Of a DNA stretch of 64,000 bases, positions 1 through 60,854 are shown piece after piece. Numbering within the stretch: position 1 is the first letter of the stretch; each line of letters opens with the position of its first letter. The position numbers and the translations under genes were made by a program. The stretch comes from Patescibacteria group bacterium (GTDB taxonomy: Bacteria; Patescibacteriota; Minisyncoccia; Phycocordibacterales; Phycocordibacteraceae), in assembly GCA_024653825.1 (NCBI GenBank), contig JANLHF010000039.1, positions 6,945-70,944 on the forward strand, in the 5' to 3' direction. Below the pieces are notes generated by a model. That model ran no database searches and was not told the DNA's origin. It worked only from the letters and a program-made list of their open reading frames with translations.

Positions 1-1617
1 CCGCACCTGCGCTTTCTTGAGAATCAGGTAAAGAAGTTGGAACGCGCTGATGCGTTGCGCACCGATCTCGTCGGCCTCGCGCAGACCTACTTCGCCATTG
101 AGGACGCGTATCTCGCGCAGGAAAAAGAAAGAGTCATCGGAGAGAAACGCGATGCAGCAGAACGGCTTGCGGTAGCGAGCGCCGAGCTCGATCGCATCGC
201 AGATCCGAAGTCCGCAGACCACGAGACTGTGAAGCGCACTGAGGCTTTGCGGAAGGCGGAGCGGGAAGTGAGCGAACTTTCTGCAGAGCGCGCCACACTC
301 TCACGCGACATAGGACGACTGGAAGGCGCTCTGACCGAAGTGAAGCGTCGGGCCACTTCAGCGGCGCACGAGCCATATGCGAAGGTGTCGCGCGAGGAGC
401 TTGAAGCACTACACAGTGAGGTTGTACGACAGGCTGAAAACGCCGGAAACAGTAGCGAATCTCTGCGCGCTGCGCTTGATGCGATTAAGCGTACGATACA
501 ATTCTTTTTTTCTCGCTATGGCTCCCCCAGCGATGAGAAGTTTTCTGAAGAGGAAAATACGGCGTTTCGACTGGAACAGGAGCGTACCGCGCTTGCGGAG
601 AAATACACAACGGTTTCCGCTGATCTTGAGAGGGCAGAAACTTCGCGCGCGCGTGCGCGCGAGGCGATGGTTGCTCTTGAAGAGACCGGTCGCGATATTC
701 GCCGCCATATTCTGGACTTCGCACAGGCGAAGGCACATGAAGAAGGCGAGGTGGCAAAGTATGAAGCACGCGAATACGAGCTCGGTGTTCTTACTGAAGA
801 ACTTGAACGAGATAAAAGGGAAGTTCTCGCGATTGGTGGGACCGCCGCCCTCTCTTATGCATCGCTCTCACAACTGCCGAGCGAAGATCGCAAGACACAA
901 GAAGAGCGCCAGCGTATTCTGGAGCGCACAAAGATCCGTTTAGAAGAAGCAGGTGGGACAGGCGAAGAGCTTCGACAGGAGCATAAAGAGGTGTCTGAGC
1001 GAGAAGCATTCCTCGCCACCGAACTCGACGATCTCGCGAAATCAGCGGCGGGTCTGCGCGAACTCATCCACGATTTAGATACGGAATTACAGAAGCATTT
1101 CTCCGAAGGGCTCGCCAAGGTCAACGCTTCGTTCGGTGAATATTTTGCACTTATGTTCGGCGGTGGTGGCGCACGGCTCACGCTTGAAGAGCCTGATGAA
1201 CCGGACGAAGACGACCTTGAGTCTGAAGAAGAAATGGATGAATTGCCGAAGGAGAAAGAACGTCAGGGTATAGAAATAGCGGTGAATCTGCCGAAGAAGA
1301 AGGTGCGCTCGCTGATGCAACTCTCGGGCGGGGAGCGCGCGCTCACCTCTATCGCGCTCATATTCGCGATGAGTCAGGTGAATCCGCCACCATTTTTGAT
1401 ACTGGACGAGACTGATGCCGCGCTCGACGAGGCGAACAGCCGTCGCTATGGGGACATGATAGAAAACCTCGCGAAGAAGAGTCAGCTCATCGTCATCACC
1501 CACAACCGCGAGACCATGAGCCGCACCGGCATCCTCTACGGCGTCACGATGGGCGGCGACGGAGTCTCCAAATTATTGTCAGTAAAATTCGAAGAAGCAG
1601 TACAAGTAGCGAAGTAG
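1..1617 (+). CDS. smc: Chromosome segregation protein SMC, C-terminal part (5' end outside the window)
   Basis: The frame is open from position 1. The product is a coiled-coil region followed by the C-terminal ABC signature and Walker B region (LSGGERALTSIALIFAM...LILDETDAALDE). Confidence 0.85.
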   Translation, partial: PHLRFLENQVKKLERADALRTDLVGLAQTYFAIEDAYLAQEKERVIGEKRDAAERLAVASAELDRIADPKSADHETVKRTEALRKAEREVSELSAERATLSRDIGRLEGALTEVKRRATSAAHEPYAKVSREELEALHSEVVRQAENAGNSSESLRAALDAIKRTIQFFFSRYGSPSDEKFSEEENTAFRLEQERTALAEKYTTVSADLERAETSRARAREAMVALEETGRDIRRHILDFAQAKAHEEGEVAKYEAREYELGVLTEELERDKREVLAIGGTAALSYASLSQLPSEDRKTQEERQRILERTKIRLEEAGGTGEELRQEHKEVSEREAFLATELDDLAKSAAGLRELIHDLDTELQKHFSEGLAKVNASFGEYFALMFGGGGARLTLEEPDEPDEDDLESEEEMDELPKEKERQGIEIAVNLPKKKVRSLMQLSGGERALTSIALIFAMSQVNPPPFLILDETDAALDEANSRRYGDMIENLAKKSQLIVITHNRETMSRTGILYGVTMGGDGVSKLLSVKFEEAVQVAK

Positions 1618-4940: not shown

Positions 4941-5414
4941 ATGTTGATGATTCGCTTTCAGCGCATCGGCCGGACCAATGATCCGGCATTTCGCATTGTC
5001 GTCCTTGAGAAAGAGCGCGCAGCGAAGGCCGGCAATATCGTCGAACTCCTTGGGACCTACAATCCGCGTAGCAAGGCGCTTACGCTCAATGAGGAACAGG
5101 TGAAGCATTGGATAAGTATGGGCGCTCAGCCGACCGATTCCATCCACAACCTCCTTATCAACAAGGGCATCATCCAGGGTAAGAAGATAAACGTGCTTCA
5201 GAAGCACACGCCGCAGAAGAATGAGGCTGCGATAGCCGCAGCCCCGACGCAAGAAGTCGGGGCGCCGACCGCAAGCGTCGGCGAAGTAATCGTGGAAGCC
5301 CCAATGCCGACCGAAGCCGAAGTCGCAGCAGAAGCTGAGCCGGCTCCGGAGGTAACCCCGGCACCCGAAGTTCCCGCAGAAGAAGAGAAGCCGGCAGAAA
5401 CTCCTGCCGCATAA
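4941..5414 (+). CDS. rpsP: 30S ribosomal protein S16 with a low-complexity Ala/Glu/Pro-rich C-terminal extension
   Basis: The N-terminus MLMIRFQRIGRTNDPAFRIVV...LGTYNP...WISMGAQPTD matches S16. The true start is an internal ATG at 4941 within the longer ORF 4407..5414. Confidence 0.85.
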   Translation: MLMIRFQRIGRTNDPAFRIVVLEKERAAKAGNIVELLGTYNPRSKALTLNEEQVKHWISMGAQPTDSIHNLLINKGIIQGKKINVLQKHTPQKNEAAIAAAPTQEVGAPTASVGEVIVEAPMPTEAEVAAEAEPAPEVTPAPEVPAEEEKPAETPAA

Positions 5415-5451
5415 CTCGCTCCCGCTGAAAGCGGGATGCTAACATATCCCT

Positions 5452-5751
5452 ATGGAACCAGATCAAGCATTTCTTGAATACGCGGTGAAGGCGCTCGTCG
5501 ATCACCCTGAGGCGGTGGAGACTACTCGTGTTATTGATCAGATGGGAGTTCTTCTTACTCTCACGGTTCACCCTGAGGACATGGGCAAGGTAGTGGGTAA
5601 GCTCGGTAAAACGGCCGAGGCATTGCGAGTCTTATTGCGCATTGTCGGGATGAAGGGGAACGCACGCGTAAACCTGAAAATAAACGAGCCCGTTGGCGGT
5701 AAGCGGGAGCAAGAACTCAAGACCATAGACCAAGTGGTTGAAGAGCTATAA
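5452..5751 (+). CDS. KH-domain RNA-binding protein (YlqC/UPF0109 family)
   Basis: It carries the GKVVGKLGKTAEALR KH motif. Its position between rpsP and trmD is conserved in bacteria. Confidence 0.75.
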   Translation: MEPDQAFLEYAVKALVDHPEAVETTRVIDQMGVLLTLTVHPEDMGKVVGKLGKTAEALRVLLRIVGMKGNARVNLKINEPVGGKREQELKTIDQVVEEL

Positions 5752-5759
5752 AGACAAAA

Positions 5760-6155
5760 ATGAAAGCGAAAATAAGTATTATAACGCTTGGGGTAAAAAA
5801 TCTAGTGAAATCAAAGAAATTTTACGCGAAACTTGGATTCAAGGCGAATGATAAATATAAGGGAATAATATTTTTCAAACTTCAGAATCTGACCCTTGCG
5901 CTCTTCCCACAAAAAGAGCTCGCGGAAGATGCAACGGTATCTGTGAAGGGAAGCGGTTTCCGTAGTTTTACCCTCGCGCACAACGTATCCTCAAAGAAAA
6001 AAGTCGATGCTGTCCTTGCGGAGGCGAAAAAAGCCGGAGGACGAATTGTAAAATTTGGGCAAGACGTTTCTTGGGGCGGATACTCAGGATATTTTAAGGA
6101 TCCTGATGGATTTTTGTGGGAAGTGGCATGGAATCCTTTCATGGATCTTGTTTAA
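5760..6155 (+). CDS. Glyoxalase/bleomycin-resistance (VOC) family protein
   Basis: The VOC-fold signature includes the C-terminal DPDGFLWEVAWNP. The gene is markedly AT-rich relative to its flanks. Confidence 0.6.
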   Translation: MKAKISIITLGVKNLVKSKKFYAKLGFKANDKYKGIIFFKLQNLTLALFPQKELAEDATVSVKGSGFRSFTLAHNVSSKKKVDAVLAEAKKAGGRIVKFGQDVSWGGYSGYFKDPDGFLWEVAWNPFMDLV

Positions 6156-18857: not shown

Positions 18858-19445
18858 ATGGGAACACTAGAAAAAAGTGCTAAGAAGGAACGGCGATGGG
18901 GAGCGTTTCAACAGGCGATGCTCTACGCCGCACTCGGTGGCATCATGGTCGCTACAGGTGCGGTTCCGGACTTCCGCAAGATTTTGAAATACTATGCGGG
19001 AAGCAAAAAAGACTCTCGTTTCAACTACCGTGCGAAGACGGTACTTGGGCGCCTTGTCGCCAAAGGATTCATCAAGTTTGAAGAGCGTGACGGGAGACGC
19101 TATGCGCGCCTGACTGAAACTGGTAAACGAGTGCTGGACCTGGAGCTGTTGAAAGATGAAGGTGTGCGGAAACCAAAACGTTGGGATAATCGATGGAGAG
19201 TTGTTATTTTCGACATCCCGGAACGTAGACGGAAAGTACGTGTCAATCTGCGCTCTTTTATGGGGAAGTACGGATTTGTAAGATTGCAGGACAGCGTCTG
19301 GATATATCCATACGATTGTGAAGAGCTCATTGCCCTCGCGAAAGCACAGTTCCGTATCGGAGTGGATGTGCTCTATATGATCGTCGAGCGGCTCGAGAAT
19401 GACGCGCCTCTGCGAAAACAATTCGGCTTGCCAGCCGCAACCTGA
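18858..19445 (+). CDS. PaaX-like transcriptional regulator (N-terminal winged helix plus a C-terminal Cas2-like/ferredoxin-like domain)
   Basis: The wHTH region is RLVAKGFIKFEERDGRRYARLTETG. The C-terminal WRVVIFDIPERRRKVRVNLRSFMGKYGFVRLQDSVWIYP resembles Cas2/PaaX_C. Confidence 0.55.
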   Translation: MGTLEKSAKKERRWGAFQQAMLYAALGGIMVATGAVPDFRKILKYYAGSKKDSRFNYRAKTVLGRLVAKGFIKFEERDGRRYARLTETGKRVLDLELLKDEGVRKPKRWDNRWRVVIFDIPERRRKVRVNLRSFMGKYGFVRLQDSVWIYPYDCEELIALAKAQFRIGVDVLYMIVERLENDAPLRKQFGLPAAT

Positions 19446-19562: not shown

Positions 19563-20096
19563 TCAAACGGCCGGGATCATCATCCCGCCCTGGTAAGAAT
19601 GCCAGCCCAGGACTTCTCCGGGTGCTCCCGAGAGTCCCTGCCCTTTTCTCTGGATCTTTTCGTATCCCCTGAAGAAATTCGAGCCCTGGAAGTCGGTACG
19701 GAATGCGGGCTCGACGTCGTTGTGGTAGACGAGGCCTTCGTGAACAAACCCGTCCTGTCCGCGGCCGCCGAAGAATTTCTTCTCGGCGTGAGCGGCACTG
19801 AGCGCCGCCTTGAGGCAGGGAAGGGCTTCCTCCTGGCAGTGGCCGAAGCATTGTAGCGTCCATATCGGTACGTCTTCGTGGGCCATCAGCAACATGCCGA
19901 TGCCACGCGGTCCGAGAGGAGTGAGGATAGAACCGCCCTCGACTGTCCAGGGTCCTTCGGCGAAGTAAGTCCGCGGCATGCCGGCGATGTCGGAATAATC
20001 CGTGTAATCGGGCCCCATCGCTTTGAAGAACATCTCCTCCATTTTGGCGAGGCAGGCAGGCGTCTTTACAAACTCCCCAAGCTCCTCAGTATTCAT
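19563..20096 (-). CDS. Hypothetical protein (177 aa)
   Basis: The ORF has coding-like composition and is followed by the bidirectional terminator. Confidence 0.45.
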   Translation of the reverse strand: MNTEELGEFVKTPACLAKMEEMFFKAMGPDYTDYSDIAGMPRTYFAEGPWTVEGGSILTPLGPRGIGMLLMAHEDVPIWTLQCFGHCQEEALPCLKAALSAAHAEKKFFGGRGQDGFVHEGLVYHNDVEPAFRTDFQGSNFFRGYEKIQRKGQGLSGAPGEVLGWHSYQGGMMIPAV

Positions 20097-20190
20097 TCAC
20101 AGCTCCTTTAGCGCAGTTGTAAGAACTTCGTTGCAGACTTCATTTATACACGATTTATTTGCATCGTCAAATGCCTGCTATACTGCCCAC

Positions 20191-21051
20191 ATGAAGCAGA
20201 AAAGGGCAGTGAGGAACCACGGGAAGAAAAAAAGAGTACCGATTAAGCACTGGAGCCATTCCAGCCTAATGTCCTTCCTAAGGAATCCGCTTGCTTGGTA
20301 CAAGCGCTATGTGGAGGAGATATACGATACGCCGACGACGCCGGCGGCGGTTATCGGCAGCGCGGGGCACCTCGCGCTGGAGCACTATTATTCGGGTGCG
20401 CCCAAGGATATCGCGATACAAAAAGGGTTGGAATACGTGCGCAGTATTGGCGACTTTGAAATTAATTTTGGTCAAGCGAAAAGCAAAGCGGCGCGGCGCG
20501 CGAAGCGCGCCGCGATGGAGGCCGACTATCTACGCGCCATCGGGTATTACCTCGCGCGTCCGCCGAAGCACAAAGTGCTCGGCGTGGAGGTACGGGGTGT
20601 GGTTGAGGTTGAAGGGCTGCCAATCCCCATCAAGGCGATTTCAGACTTGGTGGTGGAATCAAAAGTGGAGAAAGGAGCGGTGGACATTGTGGACCATAAA
20701 TTCGTCGCTTCTTTCAGCAAGGGAGGCGCGGCGAAATCGCTCTTCGTGATTCAGGCACTTTTTAATTACTACACCGTACGGGAGATGTTCGGGAAGCCGG
20801 TCCGGCGCTTTATCGTGTATGAGTGTAAGAAAACAAAGAACGCCGACGGATCCCCGCAGATGCGACGATACGAAATCGATTTCCAGAAGCACGCTCAAGA
20901 TTTCAAAGTCTTCCATCGGCTCATCAACGATGCGACCGAGGAGATTTCGCGCCGGCGCGTGTATCTACCAAACCCCTCCGATATGTTTGAAGGCGACAGT
21001 TCTTTTGATATTTATCGGTTGGAATTAGTTTCCGAGGGCCTGGTCGATTAA
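20191..21051 (+). CDS. PD-(D/E)XK nuclease superfamily protein (RecB/Cas4-like core without an Fe-S cluster)
   Basis: The N-terminal WSHSSLMSFLRNPLAWYKRY and the D...DIVDHK catalytic motifs are present. The start is an internal ATG at 20191, preceded by a TATACT box. Confidence 0.6.
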   Translation: MKQKRAVRNHGKKKRVPIKHWSHSSLMSFLRNPLAWYKRYVEEIYDTPTTPAAVIGSAGHLALEHYYSGAPKDIAIQKGLEYVRSIGDFEINFGQAKSKAARRAKRAAMEADYLRAIGYYLARPPKHKVLGVEVRGVVEVEGLPIPIKAISDLVVESKVEKGAVDIVDHKFVASFSKGGAAKSLFVIQALFNYYTVREMFGKPVRRFIVYECKKTKNADGSPQMRRYEIDFQKHAQDFKVFHRLINDATEEISRRRVYLPNPSDMFEGDSSFDIYRLELVSEGLVD

Positions 21052-34827: not shown

Positions 34828-36528
34828 ATGACTCAAGGCGAGGCGCTTACGATTTTAAAAACGGGCGCGAATGTGTATCTCACCGGCGAGCCGGGGAGCG
34901 GGAAGACGTACACCATAAATGAATTCGTCGCGTGGCTGCGCGCCTCGGGCATCGAGCCGTCAGTAACCGCGGCGACCGGTATCGCGGCGACGCACGTCGC
35001 GGGGATGACGCTCCACTCCTGGAGCGGTATCGGTATTAACGAATCGCTCTCCCGCGCCGACGTCGACCGCATCGCGACCAAGGAGCACATCGCGAAACGT
35101 ATTACGAAAGCGAGGGTGCTCATTATTGAGGAAATTTCAATGCTTTCTTCTGCGACATTCGAGATGGCGGACGCTGTTTGCCGCGAGGTGCGTAGAGTCG
35201 ACAAGCCCTTCGGCGGGCTCACAGTCATCTTGGTGGGCGACTTTTTCCAGTTACCACCCGTCTCGCGTAATAGAGAAGTCGCTTTCGCCTATACGTCGCC
35301 GGCCTGGCGCGAATTAAATCTCATCACCTGCTATCTCACCGAGCAGTATCGCCAAGACGACAGTGAATTCCTCAGCGTGCTCTCCGCTATTCGCTCGGGA
35401 GAAGTGGAAGAGATGCACTACGAGCAACTTAGGACACGGCGTGTCCTAAATAAGGAAGAGGAGCCGGCGGATGCGCCAAAACTGTTTTCGCATAATGCCG
35501 ATGTCGATCGCATCAATGCGGCAGAACTTGCAAAACTAAAAGGAACATCGAAGAAATTCAGCATGAGCTCAAAAGGAAAGGATAGTTTCGTGGAGGGACT
35601 GAAGCGCGGCTGTCTCTCGCCTGAGGTGTTGGAGCTGAAGGAGGGCGCGGCGGTGATGTTCACCAAGAACTCGCCCCAAGGGAGATTTGTGAACGGTACG
35701 CTCGGCGTGGTGAGCGGATGGGGTGCTGATGGGGCGCCGATTGTGAAGACAAAAGAGGGGCTACGTATCACGACCGAGCCGATGGAGTGGCAACTTGAAG
35801 AGCAGGGGAAGGTGAAGGCGAGCGTCTCGCAGATACCGCTTCGGCTCGCCTACGCGATGACCGTGCATAAGAGCCAGGGGATGAGTATGGACGCGGCGAT
35901 TATGGATCTCTCGAGAGCCTTTGAATACGGACAGGGTTATGTCGCGCTCTCGCGGGTGCGCCGCCTGAGCGGGGTGTATCTCACGGGGCTCAATCAACGC
36001 GCGCTTGAAGTGCATCCGGAGATTCTTGAAAAAGATAAAGACTTCCGTGCCGCCTCAGAGGCGGCACGCGATGCGTTCGCCCCTCGACCAGACTCGGGGC
36101 AGGCGGGAATGTCTGAAACCGAGAAAATAGCGATGCAGAAGAAATTCGTCAAAGCGATGGGAGGAGCCTGGATGGAAAACACAGGGAGTAGCAAGCAAGG
36201 GGTAGGGAGTAGGAAAAAAGATTCGGCAGGGCTGCCGGGGAGACTGGCAGAGACGTTACAGACCGTGCGCGACGCGAAGAGTTTAAAAGAAGTCGTGAAG
36301 TCGCGCGGGCTCGTCGCCTCGACAATCGTGAAGCATCTGGAGGAGCTCGCAGAGATAGGGAAGCTCGCTCGTTCTGACTTCGCGCATCTCGTCCCCATAG
36401 ACATTGTTGATGAAATCCATGAAGCGCTCAAAGATGAAGACACGGATCGTCTTTCACCGGTATTCCATTCTCTCCACGGCCGGCACTCCTTCGAGACTAT
36501 CCGTCTCGTCCGCCTGATGCGGGATTGA
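34828..36528 (+). CDS. Pif1/RecD-family (AAA_30) DNA helicase
   Basis: It has a Walker A (GEPGSGKT), a TVHKSQGMSMD motif and a C-terminal extension. Confidence 0.8.
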   Translation: MTQGEALTILKTGANVYLTGEPGSGKTYTINEFVAWLRASGIEPSVTAATGIAATHVAGMTLHSWSGIGINESLSRADVDRIATKEHIAKRITKARVLIIEEISMLSSATFEMADAVCREVRRVDKPFGGLTVILVGDFFQLPPVSRNREVAFAYTSPAWRELNLITCYLTEQYRQDDSEFLSVLSAIRSGEVEEMHYEQLRTRRVLNKEEEPADAPKLFSHNADVDRINAAELAKLKGTSKKFSMSSKGKDSFVEGLKRGCLSPEVLELKEGAAVMFTKNSPQGRFVNGTLGVVSGWGADGAPIVKTKEGLRITTEPMEWQLEEQGKVKASVSQIPLRLAYAMTVHKSQGMSMDAAIMDLSRAFEYGQGYVALSRVRRLSGVYLTGLNQRALEVHPEILEKDKDFRAASEAARDAFAPRPDSGQAGMSETEKIAMQKKFVKAMGGAWMENTGSSKQGVGSRKKDSAGLPGRLAETLQTVRDAKSLKEVVKSRGLVASTIVKHLEELAEIGKLARSDFAHLVPIDIVDEIHEALKDEDTDRLSPVFHSLHGRHSFETIRLVRLMRD

Positions 36529-43749: not shown

Positions 43750-44190
43750 ATGGCAAAAAAGAAACCAACATATCCCGCCGCCGCGAGGCCGGAGCCCGCT
43801 TTGGCGAGGAAAAGGCCCGAGGGAGTTCGAGTCGGGAGAGCGAGCGCCGGGCTCGGGCTCTTCGCGACACGACCCTACAAGAAAGGCGAACGTGTCATCG
43901 AGTACGTTGGCCGGACGCTCACGAATGCCGAAGAATATTCAAGCCGCAGTAAGTATCTCTTTGAGGTGAATAAGAGGAAGACCATTGACGGCTCGATGCG
44001 CTCTAACATTGCGCGCTATATCAACCATTCCTGTAAGCCCAATTGTGAGCCGGAAATAGAGAGGGGACGTATTTTTATCGATGCGATTAGGAACATCAAA
44101 GAAGGAGAGGAGTTCGTCTACGACTATGGTGAAGAGTATTTTAATGAACATATCAAGCCCTATGGCTGTCGCTGTGCGAAGCATACGTAA
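43750..44190 (+). CDS. SET-domain protein lysine methyltransferase with a post-SET Cys cluster
   Basis: It has the NHSCKPNC and EEFVYDYG motifs and a C-terminal CRCAKH. Confidence 0.8.
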   Translation: MAKKKPTYPAAARPEPALARKRPEGVRVGRASAGLGLFATRPYKKGERVIEYVGRTLTNAEEYSSRSKYLFEVNKRKTIDGSMRSNIARYINHSCKPNCEPEIERGRIFIDAIRNIKEGEEFVYDYGEEYFNEHIKPYGCRCAKHT

Positions 44191-44195
44191 AAAGA

Positions 44196-44226
44196 AAACG
44201 CCCCGCTTCGCGGGGCGTTTTCTTTA
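44196..44226. terminator. Bidirectional intrinsic terminator
   Basis: The sequence is aaaacgccccg-cttcg-cggggcgtttt. Confidence 0.7.
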
Positions 44227-44236
44227 GCTCGATTGT

Positions 44237-44306
44237 TACTACCAAGCGAGCCGAGTGACGAACAAGTTCTTACTTGATTCGTCCGAGGCAAGCTTAGGGA
44301 GCAAGC
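44237..44306. repeat. E3 repeat, copy A: conserved 5' and 3' boxes flanking a variable hairpin
   Basis: The sequence is TACTACCAAGCGAGCCGAG-tga-[hairpin]-TCCGAGGCAAGC..AGGGAG.AAGC. The same boxes occur at 60657..60728 with a different but still paired stem. Confidence 0.6.
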
Positions 44307-44320
44307 TCGGCTTTGCGAGC

Positions 44321-44530
44321 TTAGATCGTGCTGACGTTGAGGGCGTTCGGGCCTTTCGGGCTGTCGCCGATCTCAAACGAAACCTTTGCTCCCTCCTGGA
44401 GCTCGTCGAACGAAATGTTCCGGAGCTCGTTGGAATGGAAGAACAGGTCCTTAGAACCTTCCGGTGCTCCGTCGACTTTAATGAAGCCGAAGCCCTTCTC
44501 GTTCTTCTTGATTACTGTACCATTTTGCAT
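44321..44530 (-). CDS. cspA: Cold-shock protein
   Basis: It has an RNP1-like KGFGFI motif within a canonical CSD. Confidence 0.9.
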
Positions 44531-46647: not shown

Positions 46648-47061
46648 TCAAGGTAGATCAATTTCCTCGCTGTAGGTCGTATAGTCGACGGTCAGCTCCT
46701 CGCCGACCTCGATGTCCTCGATGGCGATGAAATCCTCACGGATCACTCGCATATTCGGACTCGAAGAATGATTCATATGCCACGATTTGGTTGCTTCCTC
46801 GAGACCGTTGTCAGGTATCCAGTAGTATCCCTTCTGGAACGCGCACATATCGTGCACCAGTTTTTTGACCGCTTCCGGCACCCCCCGCAGATCCTCATCC
46901 GATACTCGGATAGAACGAGCGAACGTGCTATCTCCCCTGAAGGGGCTTGTTCCTTCGGGGATCGGCCGTATAGCGAATACGCCGATGCCGTGGATAGGTG
47001 AGGGAGCGAGCCGGGTGAAGACATCGTCCCGCAACTGCTTCAGCAATTTCGTCTTGTTCAT
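46648..47061 (-). CDS. Second SET-domain protein (no post-SET)
   Basis: It has the MNHSSSPNM and GEELTVDY motifs. An AAAGGAG SD lies 8 nt upstream of the ATG at 47061. Confidence 0.7.
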   Translation of the reverse strand: MNKTKLLKQLRDDVFTRLAPSPIHGIGVFAIRPIPEGTSPFRGDSTFARSIRVSDEDLRGVPEAVKKLVHDMCAFQKGYYWIPDNGLEEATKSWHMNHSSSPNMRVIREDFIAIEDIEVGEELTVDYTTYSEEIDLP

Positions 47062-47164
47062 GTCTGCACTCCTTTCTTGTCCGCCTGTCACCATACCACT
47101 TTTCTATAAAAAAGAAATCGCCCCAAGCGCGTGAGCGCAAGGGGCGATGAGGTAACACGAAAGA

Positions 47165-60441: not shown

Positions 60442-60536
60442 GCGACTCTCCCAATAATGAATGTACTTTTACTATATATTCATATATATATGTTGTCAAT
60501 TCGGAGCTTCCGGCGGAAAAGAAAAAGTGCGAAGTG

Positions 60537-60608
60537 CTCCGGGAGCAGGACTCGAACCTGCAACCAACGCCTTAACAGGGCGCTGCTCTACCATTGAGCT
60601 ATCCCGGA
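60537..60608 (-). tRNA. tRNA-Asn (anticodon GUU); no encoded CCA
   Basis: A cloverleaf was folded manually. The acceptor stem is TCCGGGA/TCCCGGA, the D-arm is GCTCAATGGTAGAGC, the anticodon loop is CUGUUAA and the T-arm is GCAGGTTCGAGTCCTGC. Confidence 0.85.
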
Positions 60609-60656
60609 ATATTATTTACGAACGTTCCTAACTATGCAGTCCATTCCAGCGCTGCT

Positions 60657-60728
60657 CTACTACCAAGCGAGCCGAGCGAAAAGTGAATGTCTTCATGCAC
60701 TTTTCCGAGGCAAGCGCAGGGAGGAAGC
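60657..60728. repeat. E3 repeat, copy B (same conserved boxes as 44237..44306 with a covarying hairpin), about 45 nt upstream of tRNA-Asn
   Basis: The sequence is CTACTACCAAGCGAGCCGAG-cga-[gaaaagtg..cacttttc hairpin]-CGAGGCAAGCGCAGGGAGGAAGC. Confidence 0.6.
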
Positions 60729-60854
60729 CGTTCTTATGGCTTACTGCGGAATGTTTGAACGCGCGCCGCGAAGCGGCGCGTGAGTGTATTCTAGCGTAAA
60801 ATCGTTATGTCGCAATGTTCTACCTACGTGCCTCCGAAGTGCTACCATACCTGT

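What the first reader, a model, noticed from the sequence alone, without database searches (positions are those of the whole stretch)
44237..44306. E3: intergenic element with conserved end boxes and a covarying internal hairpin (two copies)
The copies at 44237..44306 and 60657..60728 share a 19-nt 5' box, TACTACCAAGCGAGCCGAG, and an approximately 25-nt 3' box, CCGAGGCAAGC..AGGGAG.AAGC. The central hairpins (cgaacaagt...acttgattcg versus gaaaagtg...cacttttc) differ in sequence but both pair. This is the signature of a structured RNA or a protein-bound DNA site. One copy follows a bidirectional terminator downstream of cspA, and the other lies 45 nt upstream of tRNA-Asn.
Basis: seen in the sequence. 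Interest (0 to 1): 0.5.

Follow-up and report, generated by a model that had tools for sequence, protein, structure and literature searches.

The report
Small TA-flanked hairpin repeat of CPR bacteria
The two look-alike intergenic stretches are copies of a previously undescribed 85-base hairpin-forming repeat, probably mobile, that occurs in many Patescibacteria (CPR) genomes, where it sits after stop codons, inside broken duplicates of tRNA genes and even in frame inside pilin genes.

Summary
Both boxes are exact in both copies, with 0 matches expected by chance. The unit is longer than reported: TA-CTACC…GCT-TA at 44237-44323 and 60658-60743, with a second variable hairpin at the 3' end.

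It is not a private pair. A pattern scan and a covariance model found about 130 copies (about 105 distinct) in Patescibacteria MAGs and groundwater metagenomes. No Rfam family matches, and there are no copies in the phage or plasmid collections.

The + strand folds into a rod of four short helices plus the 3' hairpin. 93% of pair cells are paired, 18 of 29 pairs show compensatory changes, and G·T outnumbers A·C by 2-4 to 1.

At the csp site, relatives have an empty site with a single TA, in two separate flank lineages. Every copy lies in a Y-TA-Y context. Head-to-tail tandems share one TA. Copies occur:
- on TAA stop codons;
- in the D-loop TA of partial tRNA duplicates upstream of intact tRNAs (copy 2 is a decayed example);
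- as exact 84-nt in-frame insertions in type IV pilin leader peptides.

Best reading: a non-autonomous, probably mobile repeat of the MITE/REPIN/RPE kind, recognised as a folded single strand. The enzyme is unknown. A host function is not excluded.

The parts
44237..44323 (+). Copy 1, full unit including both flanking TA dinucleotides (87 nt; net insertion 85 bp)
   Evidence: CM R1 hit of 94.4 bits, E=4e-22. Related contigs L001, L002 and L003 lack exactly this stretch and keep a single TA.
44239..44255 (+). Copy 1, 5' box CTACCAAGCGAGCCGAG. It contains the 5' strands of helices P0 (CTACC), P1 (GC) and P2 (GCC), and the conserved GA dinucleotides.
   Evidence: Invariant or nearly invariant in 32 copies. 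Pairing partners were counted.
44257..44283 (+). Copy 1, hairpin 1: 6 bp, a bulged A, 5 bp and a TCTT loop
   Evidence: Folds as predicted. All 11 pairs vary with compensatory changes across copies.
44284..44301 (+). Copy 1, 3' box CGAGGCAAGCTTAGGGAG. It contains the 3' strands of P2 (GGC), P1 (GC) and P0 (GGGAG).
   Evidence: P0 shows compensatory variants: CTGCC/GGCAG, CTCCC/GGGAG and CTAGC/GCTAG.
44303..44322 (+). Copy 1, hairpin 2 (AAGCTCG gctttg CGAGCTT), with a conserved AAGC/GCTT base and a variable tip
   Evidence: helix 4: 94.6% of cells paired, 5 of 7 pairs with changes on both sides.
44321..44530 (-). csp (cold-shock domain) gene. Its TAA stop codon (44321-44323) is formed by the right-hand TA plus the last base of the element.
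   Evidence: ORF list and Pfam CSD at E=1e-16. Empty sites read ...ATC TAA tac....
44196..44226 (.). Bidirectional terminator hairpin shared by the convergent SET and csp genes. It is host sequence, not part of the element.
   Evidence: It is present next to the empty site in L001. All weak Rfam hits in this region fall on it.
60658..60743 (+). Copy 2, full unit including both TA dinucleotides (86 nt)
   Evidence: CM R1 hit of 92.2 bits, E=1.5e-21.
60678..60705 (+). Copy 2, hairpin 1 (GAAAAGTGAATG TCTT CATGCACTTTTC)
60725..60742 (+). Copy 2, hairpin 2 (AAGCC gttcttat GGCTT). It is the tRNA-associated subtype also seen in L009, L029 and L066.
60649..60659 (-). Remnant of a duplicated tRNA-Asn. 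TAGAGCAGCGC is identical to nt 20-30 of the intact tRNA-Asn and directly follows the element when read in tRNA orientation.
   Evidence: Seen directly in the sequence. The clear orthologous arrangement is in L009, L029, L066 and L076. A whole-length alignment of this window remnant is not significant on its own.
60536..60608 (-). Intact tRNA-Asn(GTT), 49 nt downstream of copy 2 when read in tRNA orientation
   Evidence: Rfam tRNA at 73.7 bits and ARAGORN.
60760..60782 (.). G+C-rich 10-bp hairpin just outside copy 2. A hairpin occupies the same position in the orthologous tRNA-Asn loci.

Best explanation
The two stretches are members of a family of small (72-93 nt, mode 84-85), non-coding and probably mobile repeat elements. 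The family is specific to Patescibacteria (Paceibacterota, Kaiserbacteria, Parcubacteria).

Shown:
- Each unit sits in a Y-TA-Y site with TA on both sides.
- Related genomes have the same site empty with one TA.
- Units occur singly or as head-to-tail tandems that share one TA.
- One strand (the + strand as defined here) folds into an irregular rod: P0 CTRCC/GGNAG, P1 GC/GC, a GA/AA loop, P2 GCC/GGC, a tandem GA/GA, then a variable hairpin with a bulged A and a TCYK loop. A second small hairpin lies at the 3' end. In this fold both TA junctions lie at the feet of helices.

Inferred:
- The invariant internal-loop boxes are the recognition site of a trans-acting recombinase or transposase. It acts on the folded single strand, most likely single-stranded DNA, as in the REP/REPIN-RAYT, IS200/IS605 or attC systems.
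- It joins the element to YTAY targets through a shared TA.
- The asymmetric target alone explains the orientation: antisense at TAA stop codons and at the tRNA D-loop GG-TA-GAGC, and sense at the pilin TT-TA-CC.

In the window, copy 1 is a passenger in the csp 3' untranslated region. Copy 2 sits in a decayed partial duplicate of tRNA-Asn upstream of the intact gene. Copy turnover is slow, and individual copies persist at orthologous sites across species.
For: Family and distribution:
- 25 of 28 genome hits are Patescibacteria MAGs. The 3 others lack the flanking boxes.
- 103 metagenome stretches carry the 5' box, and the model finds 95 + 55 hits.

Gain and loss:
- The csp site is filled in the window and L033, and empty in L001, L002 and L003. 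Each filled site has a flank-matched empty partner.

Target:
- Position -1 is C in 41 and T in 40 of 84 copies. Position +1 is C in 54 and T in 23 of 89 copies.

Tandems:
- L010, L013, L014, L030, L031, L063 and L090.

Structure:
-.
- Strand asymmetry is G·T 20 vs A·C 5, and 81 vs 37 in the larger set.

Contexts:
- 31 copies antisense upstream of tRNAs, 22 on TAA stops, and 9 in-frame 84-nt pilin insertions.
- D-loop insertion into tRNA duplicates.

Not a known RNA:
-.
Against: - No transposase or recombinase was found. No cargo-bearing copy exists among about 128 loci. None appears in 30 window ORFs. There is no IS608-TnpA-like hit in about 770 kb (the query sequence was recalled from memory).
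- There are no true terminal inverted repeats. The right end (hairpin 2) lies outside the rod.
- Copy number is low, and the two copies in this genome have unrelated hairpins. There is therefore no sign of recent bursts.
- Copies at orthologous tRNA-Asn sites in five genomes keep intact boxes and change by compensatory substitutions, while the adjacent spacer is unalignable. That looks like constraint acting in place, which a purely selfish passenger does not predict. Search ascertainment on intact boxes, and gene conversion, may contribute to this pattern.
- No orientation bias relative to GC skew was seen (27:27).
Confidence: 0.6

Rival explanations
1. A host-functional cis element, RNA or DNA, that has been duplicated or exapted. 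Examples would be a processing, stability or insulation signal in tRNA leaders and 3' UTRs, or a binding site for a chromosomal protein. It would be maintained by host-level selection. This is not exclusive with a mobile origin.
For: - Orthologous tRNA-Asn copies in w2, L009, L029, L066 and L076 share the same breakpoints. They keep identical boxes and compensatory hairpin changes, while the neighbouring spacer is unalignable.
- The 3' box is conserved even where only the 5' box was used for retrieval.
- Copy number is low, and the family is conserved across the whole class.
Against: - The folded strand is antisense to the host transcript in 53 of about 64 oriented contexts, and sense in pilin genes.
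- The element occurs inside ORFs.
- Close flank relatives lack it at the csp site, with no other change.
- There is no conserved external promoter or terminator.
- No single function fits 3' UTRs, tRNA upstream regions and pilin leader peptides alike.
Confidence: 0.2
2. A classical DDE-type MITE of the IS630/Tc1-mariner kind. It would be a double-stranded cut-and-paste element with a TA target-site duplication, and the rod would simply reflect its terminal inverted repeats.
For: - TA lies on both sides and once in empty sites.
- The element is small and has no ORF.
- The 5' 17 nt and the 3' box are an imperfect inverted repeat.
- Known bacterial MITEs such as ERIC-type elements are flanked by TA (PMC3184786).
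Against: - The two termini are not inverted copies of each other (5'-CTACC... versus ...AGCT-3'), and hairpin 2 lies outside the repeat.
- Compensatory changes in P0 and the excess of G·T over A·C indicate selection on single-strand pairing, not on two identical protein-binding ends.
- The target is asymmetric (YTAY).
- No autonomous partner with the same ends was found.
Confidence: 0.12
3. A transcribed small RNA or self-cleaving ribozyme carried on a repeat, with conserved internal loops as a catalytic or ligand core.
For: - The architecture has invariant purine-rich internal loops between covarying helices.
- The element occurs in tandem arrays.
- G·T pairs are tolerated on one strand.
Against: - There is no Rfam match, even at E<=10.
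- No promoter travels with the element.
- The base-paired P1 and P2 nucleotides are invariant rather than covarying.
- The folded strand is usually the non-transcribed sense relative to neighbouring genes.
Confidence: 0.06

Closest known systems
REP / REPIN elements mobilised by RAYT (HUH Y1) transposases
   Same: - A short, non-coding unit of about 100 nt that folds as a single-strand hairpin from two imperfect inverted boxes.
- Turnover is slow, copies persist at orthologous sites, and inheritance is vertical (10.1101/2024.10.14.618302; PMC3116915).
- One strand is the relevant one.
- The unit starts with CTAC, the complement of the REP 'GTAG' tetranucleotide (that motif is from my own knowledge).
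   Different: - No RAYT gene was found.
- Copy number is far lower than for typical REPINs.
- There is an extra 3' hairpin.
- The element is strictly embedded in TA.
- It inserts into ORFs and tRNA duplicates.
- The host phylum is Patescibacteria, not Proteobacteria.
Rickettsia palindromic elements (RPE)
   Same: - A palindromic repeat of about 100 nt with no known transposase.
- It is found both between genes and fused in frame inside protein-coding genes (Ogata 2000, as cited in PMC3184786).
- Here, exact 84-nt in-frame insertions lie in pilin leader peptides.
   Different: - No sequence relationship to RPE was shown.
- RPEs have no defined TA target and no association with tRNA D-loops.
- The host lineage is different.
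TA-flanked bacterial MITEs (Correia/CREE, ERIC-type, IS630-derived)
   Same: - Small size and non-autonomous nature.
- A 5'-TA-3' on both sides.
- Presence/absence between related strains.
- Mostly intergenic location near gene ends (PMC3184786).
   Different: - Those elements have clear terminal inverted repeats of 20-30 bp.
- This element does not, and it shows strand-specific structural covariation.
Integron attC sites (59-base elements)
   Same: - Conserved end boxes around a variable, covarying centre.
- The element is recombined as a folded single strand with unpaired and extrahelical bases.
- It often abuts or overlaps the stop codon of the upstream gene (these attC properties are from my own knowledge).
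   Different: - No RYYYAAC/GTTRRRY core sites.
- No cassette arrays or integrase nearby.
- The mobile unit here is the 85-nt element alone, not a gene plus a site.
IS200/IS605 family and derived palindrome-associated elements
   Same: - No terminal inverted repeats.
- Subterminal hairpins.
- Always found 3' of a short conserved flank (YTA here, TTAC for IS608).
- Tandem insertion is possible because the element's end recreates the target.
   Different: - The two hairpins are unlike each other.
- No TnpA or TnpB was found.
- The data cannot separate 'no duplication, inserted 3' of YTA' from 'TA duplicated'.

Membership tests
Any Rfam 15 RNA family | A covariance-model score at or near the family's gathering threshold | tested here: not met
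   The only gathering-level hit in the window is tRNA-Asn. At E<=10, hits near copy 1 all fall on the neighbouring terminator. Copy 2 gives only a 13.9-bit hit to rli42, whose gathering score is 80.
MITE (DDE-type, TA-duplicating) | Terminal inverted repeats at both extreme ends | tested here: not met
   The ends read 5'-CTACCAAGCG... and ...GCGAGCT-3'. The imperfect inverted repeat (5' box vs 3' box) stops before hairpin 2.
MITE (DDE-type, TA-duplicating) | A target-site duplication, with a single copy of it in the empty site | tested here: met
   TA flanks all full copies. The empty csp sites have one TA. The data fit a shared recombination core equally well.
MITE (DDE-type, TA-duplicating) | A cognate autonomous IS with the same ends | tested here: inconclusive
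   None was found among 103 metagenome and 25 genome loci retrieved by the end boxes. Whole genomes were not searched.
REP/REPIN-RAYT | A hairpin-forming repeat with long-term persistence at orthologous sites | tested here: met
   Structure. Orthologous tRNA-Asn, tRNA-Pro, murC-upstream and csp copies across species.
REP/REPIN-RAYT | A single-copy RAYT (Y1 HUH) gene in the same genome, often flanked by the repeats | tested here: inconclusive
   No Y1-like hit was found in about 770 kb of element-bearing loci, using an IS608 TnpA query recalled from memory. None appears among 30 window ORFs. Complete genomes were not available.
Rickettsia palindromic elements | In-frame insertion into protein-coding genes without stop codons | tested here: met
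   Nine pilin copies are each exactly 84 nt and open in frame. The N_methyl motif follows the insert.
Rickettsia palindromic elements | Sequence homology to RPE-1..8 | not tested
   No RPE sequences were available in the tools. The distant host lineage makes homology unlikely.
Integron attC | Inverse core RYYYAAC and core GTTRRRY at the two ends | tested here: not met
   The ends are TACTRCC and GCTTA. No GTTRRRY motif is present.
Integron attC | Arrays of gene cassettes, or a nearby IntI integrase | tested here: not met
   Copies are single or in direct tandem, with no genes between them. No integrase was found among the window ORFs scanned.
tRNA intron (group I, or bulge-helix-bulge type) | It interrupts an otherwise intact, sole copy of a tRNA and is removed from the RNA | tested here: not met
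   The interrupted tRNAs are partial or decayed duplicates lying next to an intact copy. At 85 nt the element is far below group I intron size, and Rfam gave no intron hit. The reported Patescibacteria tRNA introns lie at position 35/36 (PMC13011429), not in the D-loop.

The most novel reading that the evidence does not exclude
The family is the substrate of an undiscovered recombination or transposition system specific to Patescibacteria. That system would recognise a folded single strand (the invariant GA/AA and GA/GA loops) and integrate at YTAY. It would have a strong preference for the tRNA D-loop and would produce, or select for, partial tRNA duplications. Alternatively, like REPINs, the element lives in long-term vertical association with a domesticated enzyme and has acquired a host role. 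Either way it would be a new class of mobile or recombinogenic element in the most gene-poor bacteria known.
Probability: 0.3. Interest if true: 0.78.

Novelty: new variant of a known kind. Interest (0 to 1): 0.6.

Why it matters
CPR/Patescibacteria genomes are about 1 Mb, highly streamlined and thought to be poor in repeats. I found no description of a small mobile repeat in them, either in the paper library or in Rfam.

This family matters for several reasons:
- It gives a handle on genome dynamics in uncultivated bacteria.
- It marks sites where essential genes tolerate insertions: stop codons, cleavable pilin leaders and duplicated tRNAs.
- Its invariant boxes point to an unidentified nucleic-acid-recognising enzyme.
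- On the practical side, it explains annotation oddities such as pseudo-tRNA halves, over-long pilin leaders and 'conserved intergenic motifs'.
- The covariance model built here can mask or track it.

Tried and rejected
- Known RNA family. Rfam at gathering threshold and at E<=10 gave nothing on the element.
- A tRNA or tRNA-like gene. ARAGORN and Rfam find only the intact tRNA-Asn. The D-arm-like end GCTCGCTTGGTAG-TA is only a resemblance.
- A tRNA intron. The interrupted tRNAs are partial duplicates beside intact copies.
- An attC site. There are no core sites or cassettes.
- An IS608-type insertion 3' of TTAC. The empty csp site lacks the C, so the C belongs to the element.
- Phage or plasmid origin. 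No copies were found in IMG/VR (the one hit, L135, is a chance match inside an ORF), in PLSDB or in INPHARED.
- An autonomous partner. Eight loci carry the 5' box alone; they are high-GC chance matches or truncated copies, with no cargo.
- Shared neighbouring proteins. Clustering gives only housekeeping and pilin families.
- Replication-strand bias. GC skew splits 27:27.
- An empty site for copy 2. Exact-protein look-ups for its neighbours found nothing on record.
- Global alignment of the window's pseudo-tRNA remnant to tRNA-Asn. It is not better than shuffles. Only the 11-nt identity and the orthologous loci support that reading.

Full report
**1. The observation**

Both conserved boxes are exact in both places and nowhere else in the 64 kb, even with three mismatches. 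None is expected in shuffled sequence.

Reading the two loci side by side shows that the shared unit is longer than reported. It runs TA-CTACC…GCT-TA, at 44237-44323 and 60658-60743. After the 3' box there is a second hairpin whose base (AAGC/GCTT) is shared and whose tip differs: AAGCTCG…CGAGCTT in copy 1 and AAGCC…GGCTT in copy 2.

Copy 1 lies between the TAA stop of a minus-strand cold-shock gene (44321-44530) and the terminator that this gene shares with a convergent SET-domain gene. Its last TA is part of that stop codon. Copy 2 lies 49 nt from tRNA-Asn (60536-60608, minus strand).

**2. Not a known RNA**

Rfam gives only the tRNA at gathering threshold. At E<=10 the hits near copy 1 all fall on the neighbouring terminator, and copy 2 gives nothing meaningful.

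**3. Presence/absence at the csp site**

Contigs that encode the identical Csp protein have an intergenic region shorter by exactly 85 bp. They read …gatgtatTAgatcg…, where the window reads …gattgtTA[C…T]TAgatcg….

A metagenome contig, L033, has the site filled with a 97% identical element. In the four-way alignment the window's flank matches empty L001, and L033's flank matches empty L003. The same TA was therefore either hit twice or vacated precisely twice.

**4. A family in Patescibacteria**

An exact two-box pattern scanned over one genome per GTDB species found 28 loci. Of these, 25 are in Paceibacterota, Kaiserbacteria, Parcubacteria or other Patescibacteria MAGs and have the full architecture. 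The other 3 are proteobacterial matches without the flanking boxes.

The 19-nt 5' box alone found 103 metagenome stretches, mostly from groundwater. A covariance model built from 32 copies finds only the two copies in the window. It finds 95 + 55 hits in the fetched loci, which is about 105 distinct sequences.

The element is absent from IMG/VR, PLSDB and INPHARED. Paper searches found no description of it.

**5. Structure**

On the strand that carries TACTACC…, the element forms an irregular rod followed by a small hairpin:
- P0: CTRCC/GGNAG
- an AA/NNN loop
- P1: GC/GC
- a GA/AA loop
- P2: GCC/GGC
- a tandem GA/GA, then a G-C pair and a bulged pyrimidine
- a variable hairpin of 6 bp + bulged A + 5 bp, with a TCYK loop
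- hairpin 2, after one linker nucleotide

The support for this fold is as follows.
- 93.3% of pair cells are standard pairs, against 36-39% when partners are slid.
- 18 of 29 pairs have changes on both sides.
- No shuffle in 500 reaches any measure.
- RNAalifold independently returns the rod.
- P0 has clean compensatory variants: CTGCC/GGCAG, CTCCC/GGGAG and CTAGC/GCTAG.
- P1 and P2 and the purine loops are essentially invariant. This suggests sequence-specific recognition rather than mere pairing.

G·T outnumbers A·C 20 to 5 in the first set and 81 to 37 in 79 distinct metagenome copies. This strand is therefore the one that has to fold.

**6. Where copies sit**

The flanks give an asymmetric target. 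Position -1 is C or T in 81 of 84 copies, and position +1 is C in 54 and T in 23 of 89.

Among about 97 distinct copies with both flanks:
- 31 lie 13-60 nt upstream of a tRNA gene, with the folded strand antisense to it. Only 2 are in the sense orientation.
- 22 have their right-hand TA as the TA of a TAA stop codon of an antisense gene.
- 9 (plus their tandem partners) lie in type IV pilin genes.
- 33 are otherwise intergenic.
- 9 are in head-to-tail tandems that share one TA.

The asymmetric YTAY target by itself predicts these orientations. TAA read backwards is T-TA. The D-loop GG-TA-GAGC read backwards is C-TA-CC. The pilin TT-TA-CC is read forwards. In compact operons the element fills the whole gap between a stop codon and a start codon about 10 nt further on.

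**7. Pilin genes**

In the pilin genes every copy is an exact 84-nt insertion at the TA of GGN-TTT-ACC, the codons for the G-F-T of the prepilin motif GFTLIE. The insert is open in frame, with C instead of T at the bulged position, which avoids a TGA stop. It ends in GGGTT-TA, so an intact G|FTLIE follows the insert.

Pfam places the N-terminal methylation motif after the 28-residue insert. I infer that the extension is removed with the leader peptide, which would explain why the insertion is tolerated.

**8. tRNA contexts**

In L009 the sequence upstream of the intact tRNA-Asn repeats tRNA nucleotides -3..32. The repeat is split at the D-loop TA by the element, with TA on both sides.

The same layout recurs in L029, L066, L076 and, in decayed form, at copy 2 of the window: GC hairpin, 5' part, element, nt 22-32, an unalignable spacer ending in a -10-like box, then the intact tRNA.

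Analogous partial or full duplicates that carry the element in the D-loop occur for tRNA-Thr, Gln, Ala, Ile and Pro. An intact copy is always adjacent, so nothing requires the element to be spliced.

My inference is that the D-loop is a favoured target, and that insertions into these essential single-copy genes can only be fixed in a duplicated copy. How the duplications arise is unexplained. For the window itself only an 11-nt identity (TAGAGCAGCGC) remains, and a global alignment is not significant.

**9. Mobile, functional, or both?**

For mobility:
- the filled/empty states
- the constant TA embedding
- the tandem arrays
- the variety of contexts, including ORFs

Against a simple selfish burst:
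- copy number is low
- the two window copies have unrelated hairpins, while copy 1 is 97% identical to the copy at the same site in another genome
- orthologous copies keep perfect boxes and evolve by compensatory changes while neighbouring spacers are scrambled

This pattern recalls REPINs, which are duplicated rarely and inherited vertically (10.1101/2024.10.14.618302; PMC3116915). Retrieval by intact boxes biases the sample towards intact copies. However, the 3' box is also conserved in copies retrieved by the 5' box only.

No enzyme was identified:
- no cargo-bearing copy
- no recurrent neighbouring recombinase
- none in 30 window ORFs
- no IS608-TnpA-like sequence in the loci (the query was recalled from memory)
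- no strand bias relative to GC skew

**10. Verdict**

The finding is real, and it is a member of a sizeable, undescribed family of TA-embedded, single-strand-structured repeat elements of Patescibacteria. The most likely mechanism is trans-mobilisation of the folded strand by an unidentified recombinase or transposase, with integration at YTAY through a shared TA. Host use of some copies is not excluded.

It resembles REP/REPIN, RPE and TA-flanked MITEs, but it fails the defining test of classical MITEs (terminal inverted repeats) and of attC (core sites). I therefore rate it a new variant of a known kind, of moderate to high interest.

Noticed in passing
L009:3040-3230; L029, L066, L076; L010:5446-5665; L103; window 60609-60765: Partial duplicates of tRNA genes lie just upstream of the intact gene. 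They cover the 5' part up to about nt 32-35, and in tRNA-Thr this part is fused directly to nt 1 of the real tRNA. The breakpoint falls in the anticodon loop, close to the 35/36 group I intron site reported for Patescibacteria tRNA-Asn and tRNA-Asp (PMC13011429). I could not tell whether the two facts are related.
   Followed up: partly
L057:1230-1290 and L023:5400-5470 (tRNA orientation): The pseudo-tRNA-Ile that carries the element also has a second palindromic insertion of about 50 nt (…CGACCAGTTTTGTCCAA.AGCGAAGCGATTGGAAACAAAAC…) in the variable-loop region. The insertion is conserved between two metagenome contigs and may be another small repeat family.
   Followed up: no
L083:2693-3256 and 5290-6012; L063; L090; L044; L088; L078: Clusters of type IV pilin/pseudopilin paralogues have leader peptides lengthened by 28 or 56 residues (GFTTKRA…), encoded by one or two in-frame copies of the element. 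A diverged subfamily (…AAGCGAGTGAG…CGAACGAGC…) appears confined to these genes.
   Followed up: partly
L076:1627-1721 (-): A weak model hit consists of the tRNA-Asn 3' end, a terminator, an inverted copy of the tRNA 3' end, and then a solitary hairpin-2-like module AAGCCGTTCCTACGGCTTA. Hairpin 2 may therefore exist on its own.
   Followed up: no
L031:1716-1960: The sequences flanking the tandem pair upstream of tRNA-Gln form an 18-bp inverted repeat of the tRNA-Gln 5' part. This would enclose both elements in a long stem.
   Followed up: no
L013, L014 and L030 tandem pairs: The two units of a tandem share an identical hairpin 1, but the upstream unit has only a minimal hairpin 2 (AAGC-NNN-GCTTA). 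This suggests local duplication rather than two separate insertions.
   Followed up: no
window 43750-44190 (+) and 46648-47094 (-): Two SET-domain (lysine methyltransferase-like) proteins lie within 3 kb of each other in a bacterial genome.
   Followed up: no
window 34828-36528 (+), 18858-19445 (+), 20023-21051 (+): Three further genes were noted: a PIF1-like helicase fused to an HTH_40 domain, a PaaX_M (Cas2-like fold) protein and a PD-(D/E)XK nuclease. None is an obvious transposase, and none was linked to the element.
   Followed up: no
window 60760-60782: A perfect 10-bp G+C hairpin without a U-tract lies just outside copy 2. A comparable hairpin occupies the same position in all five tRNA-Asn loci compared. 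It is probably the terminator of the upstream unit.
   Followed up: partly
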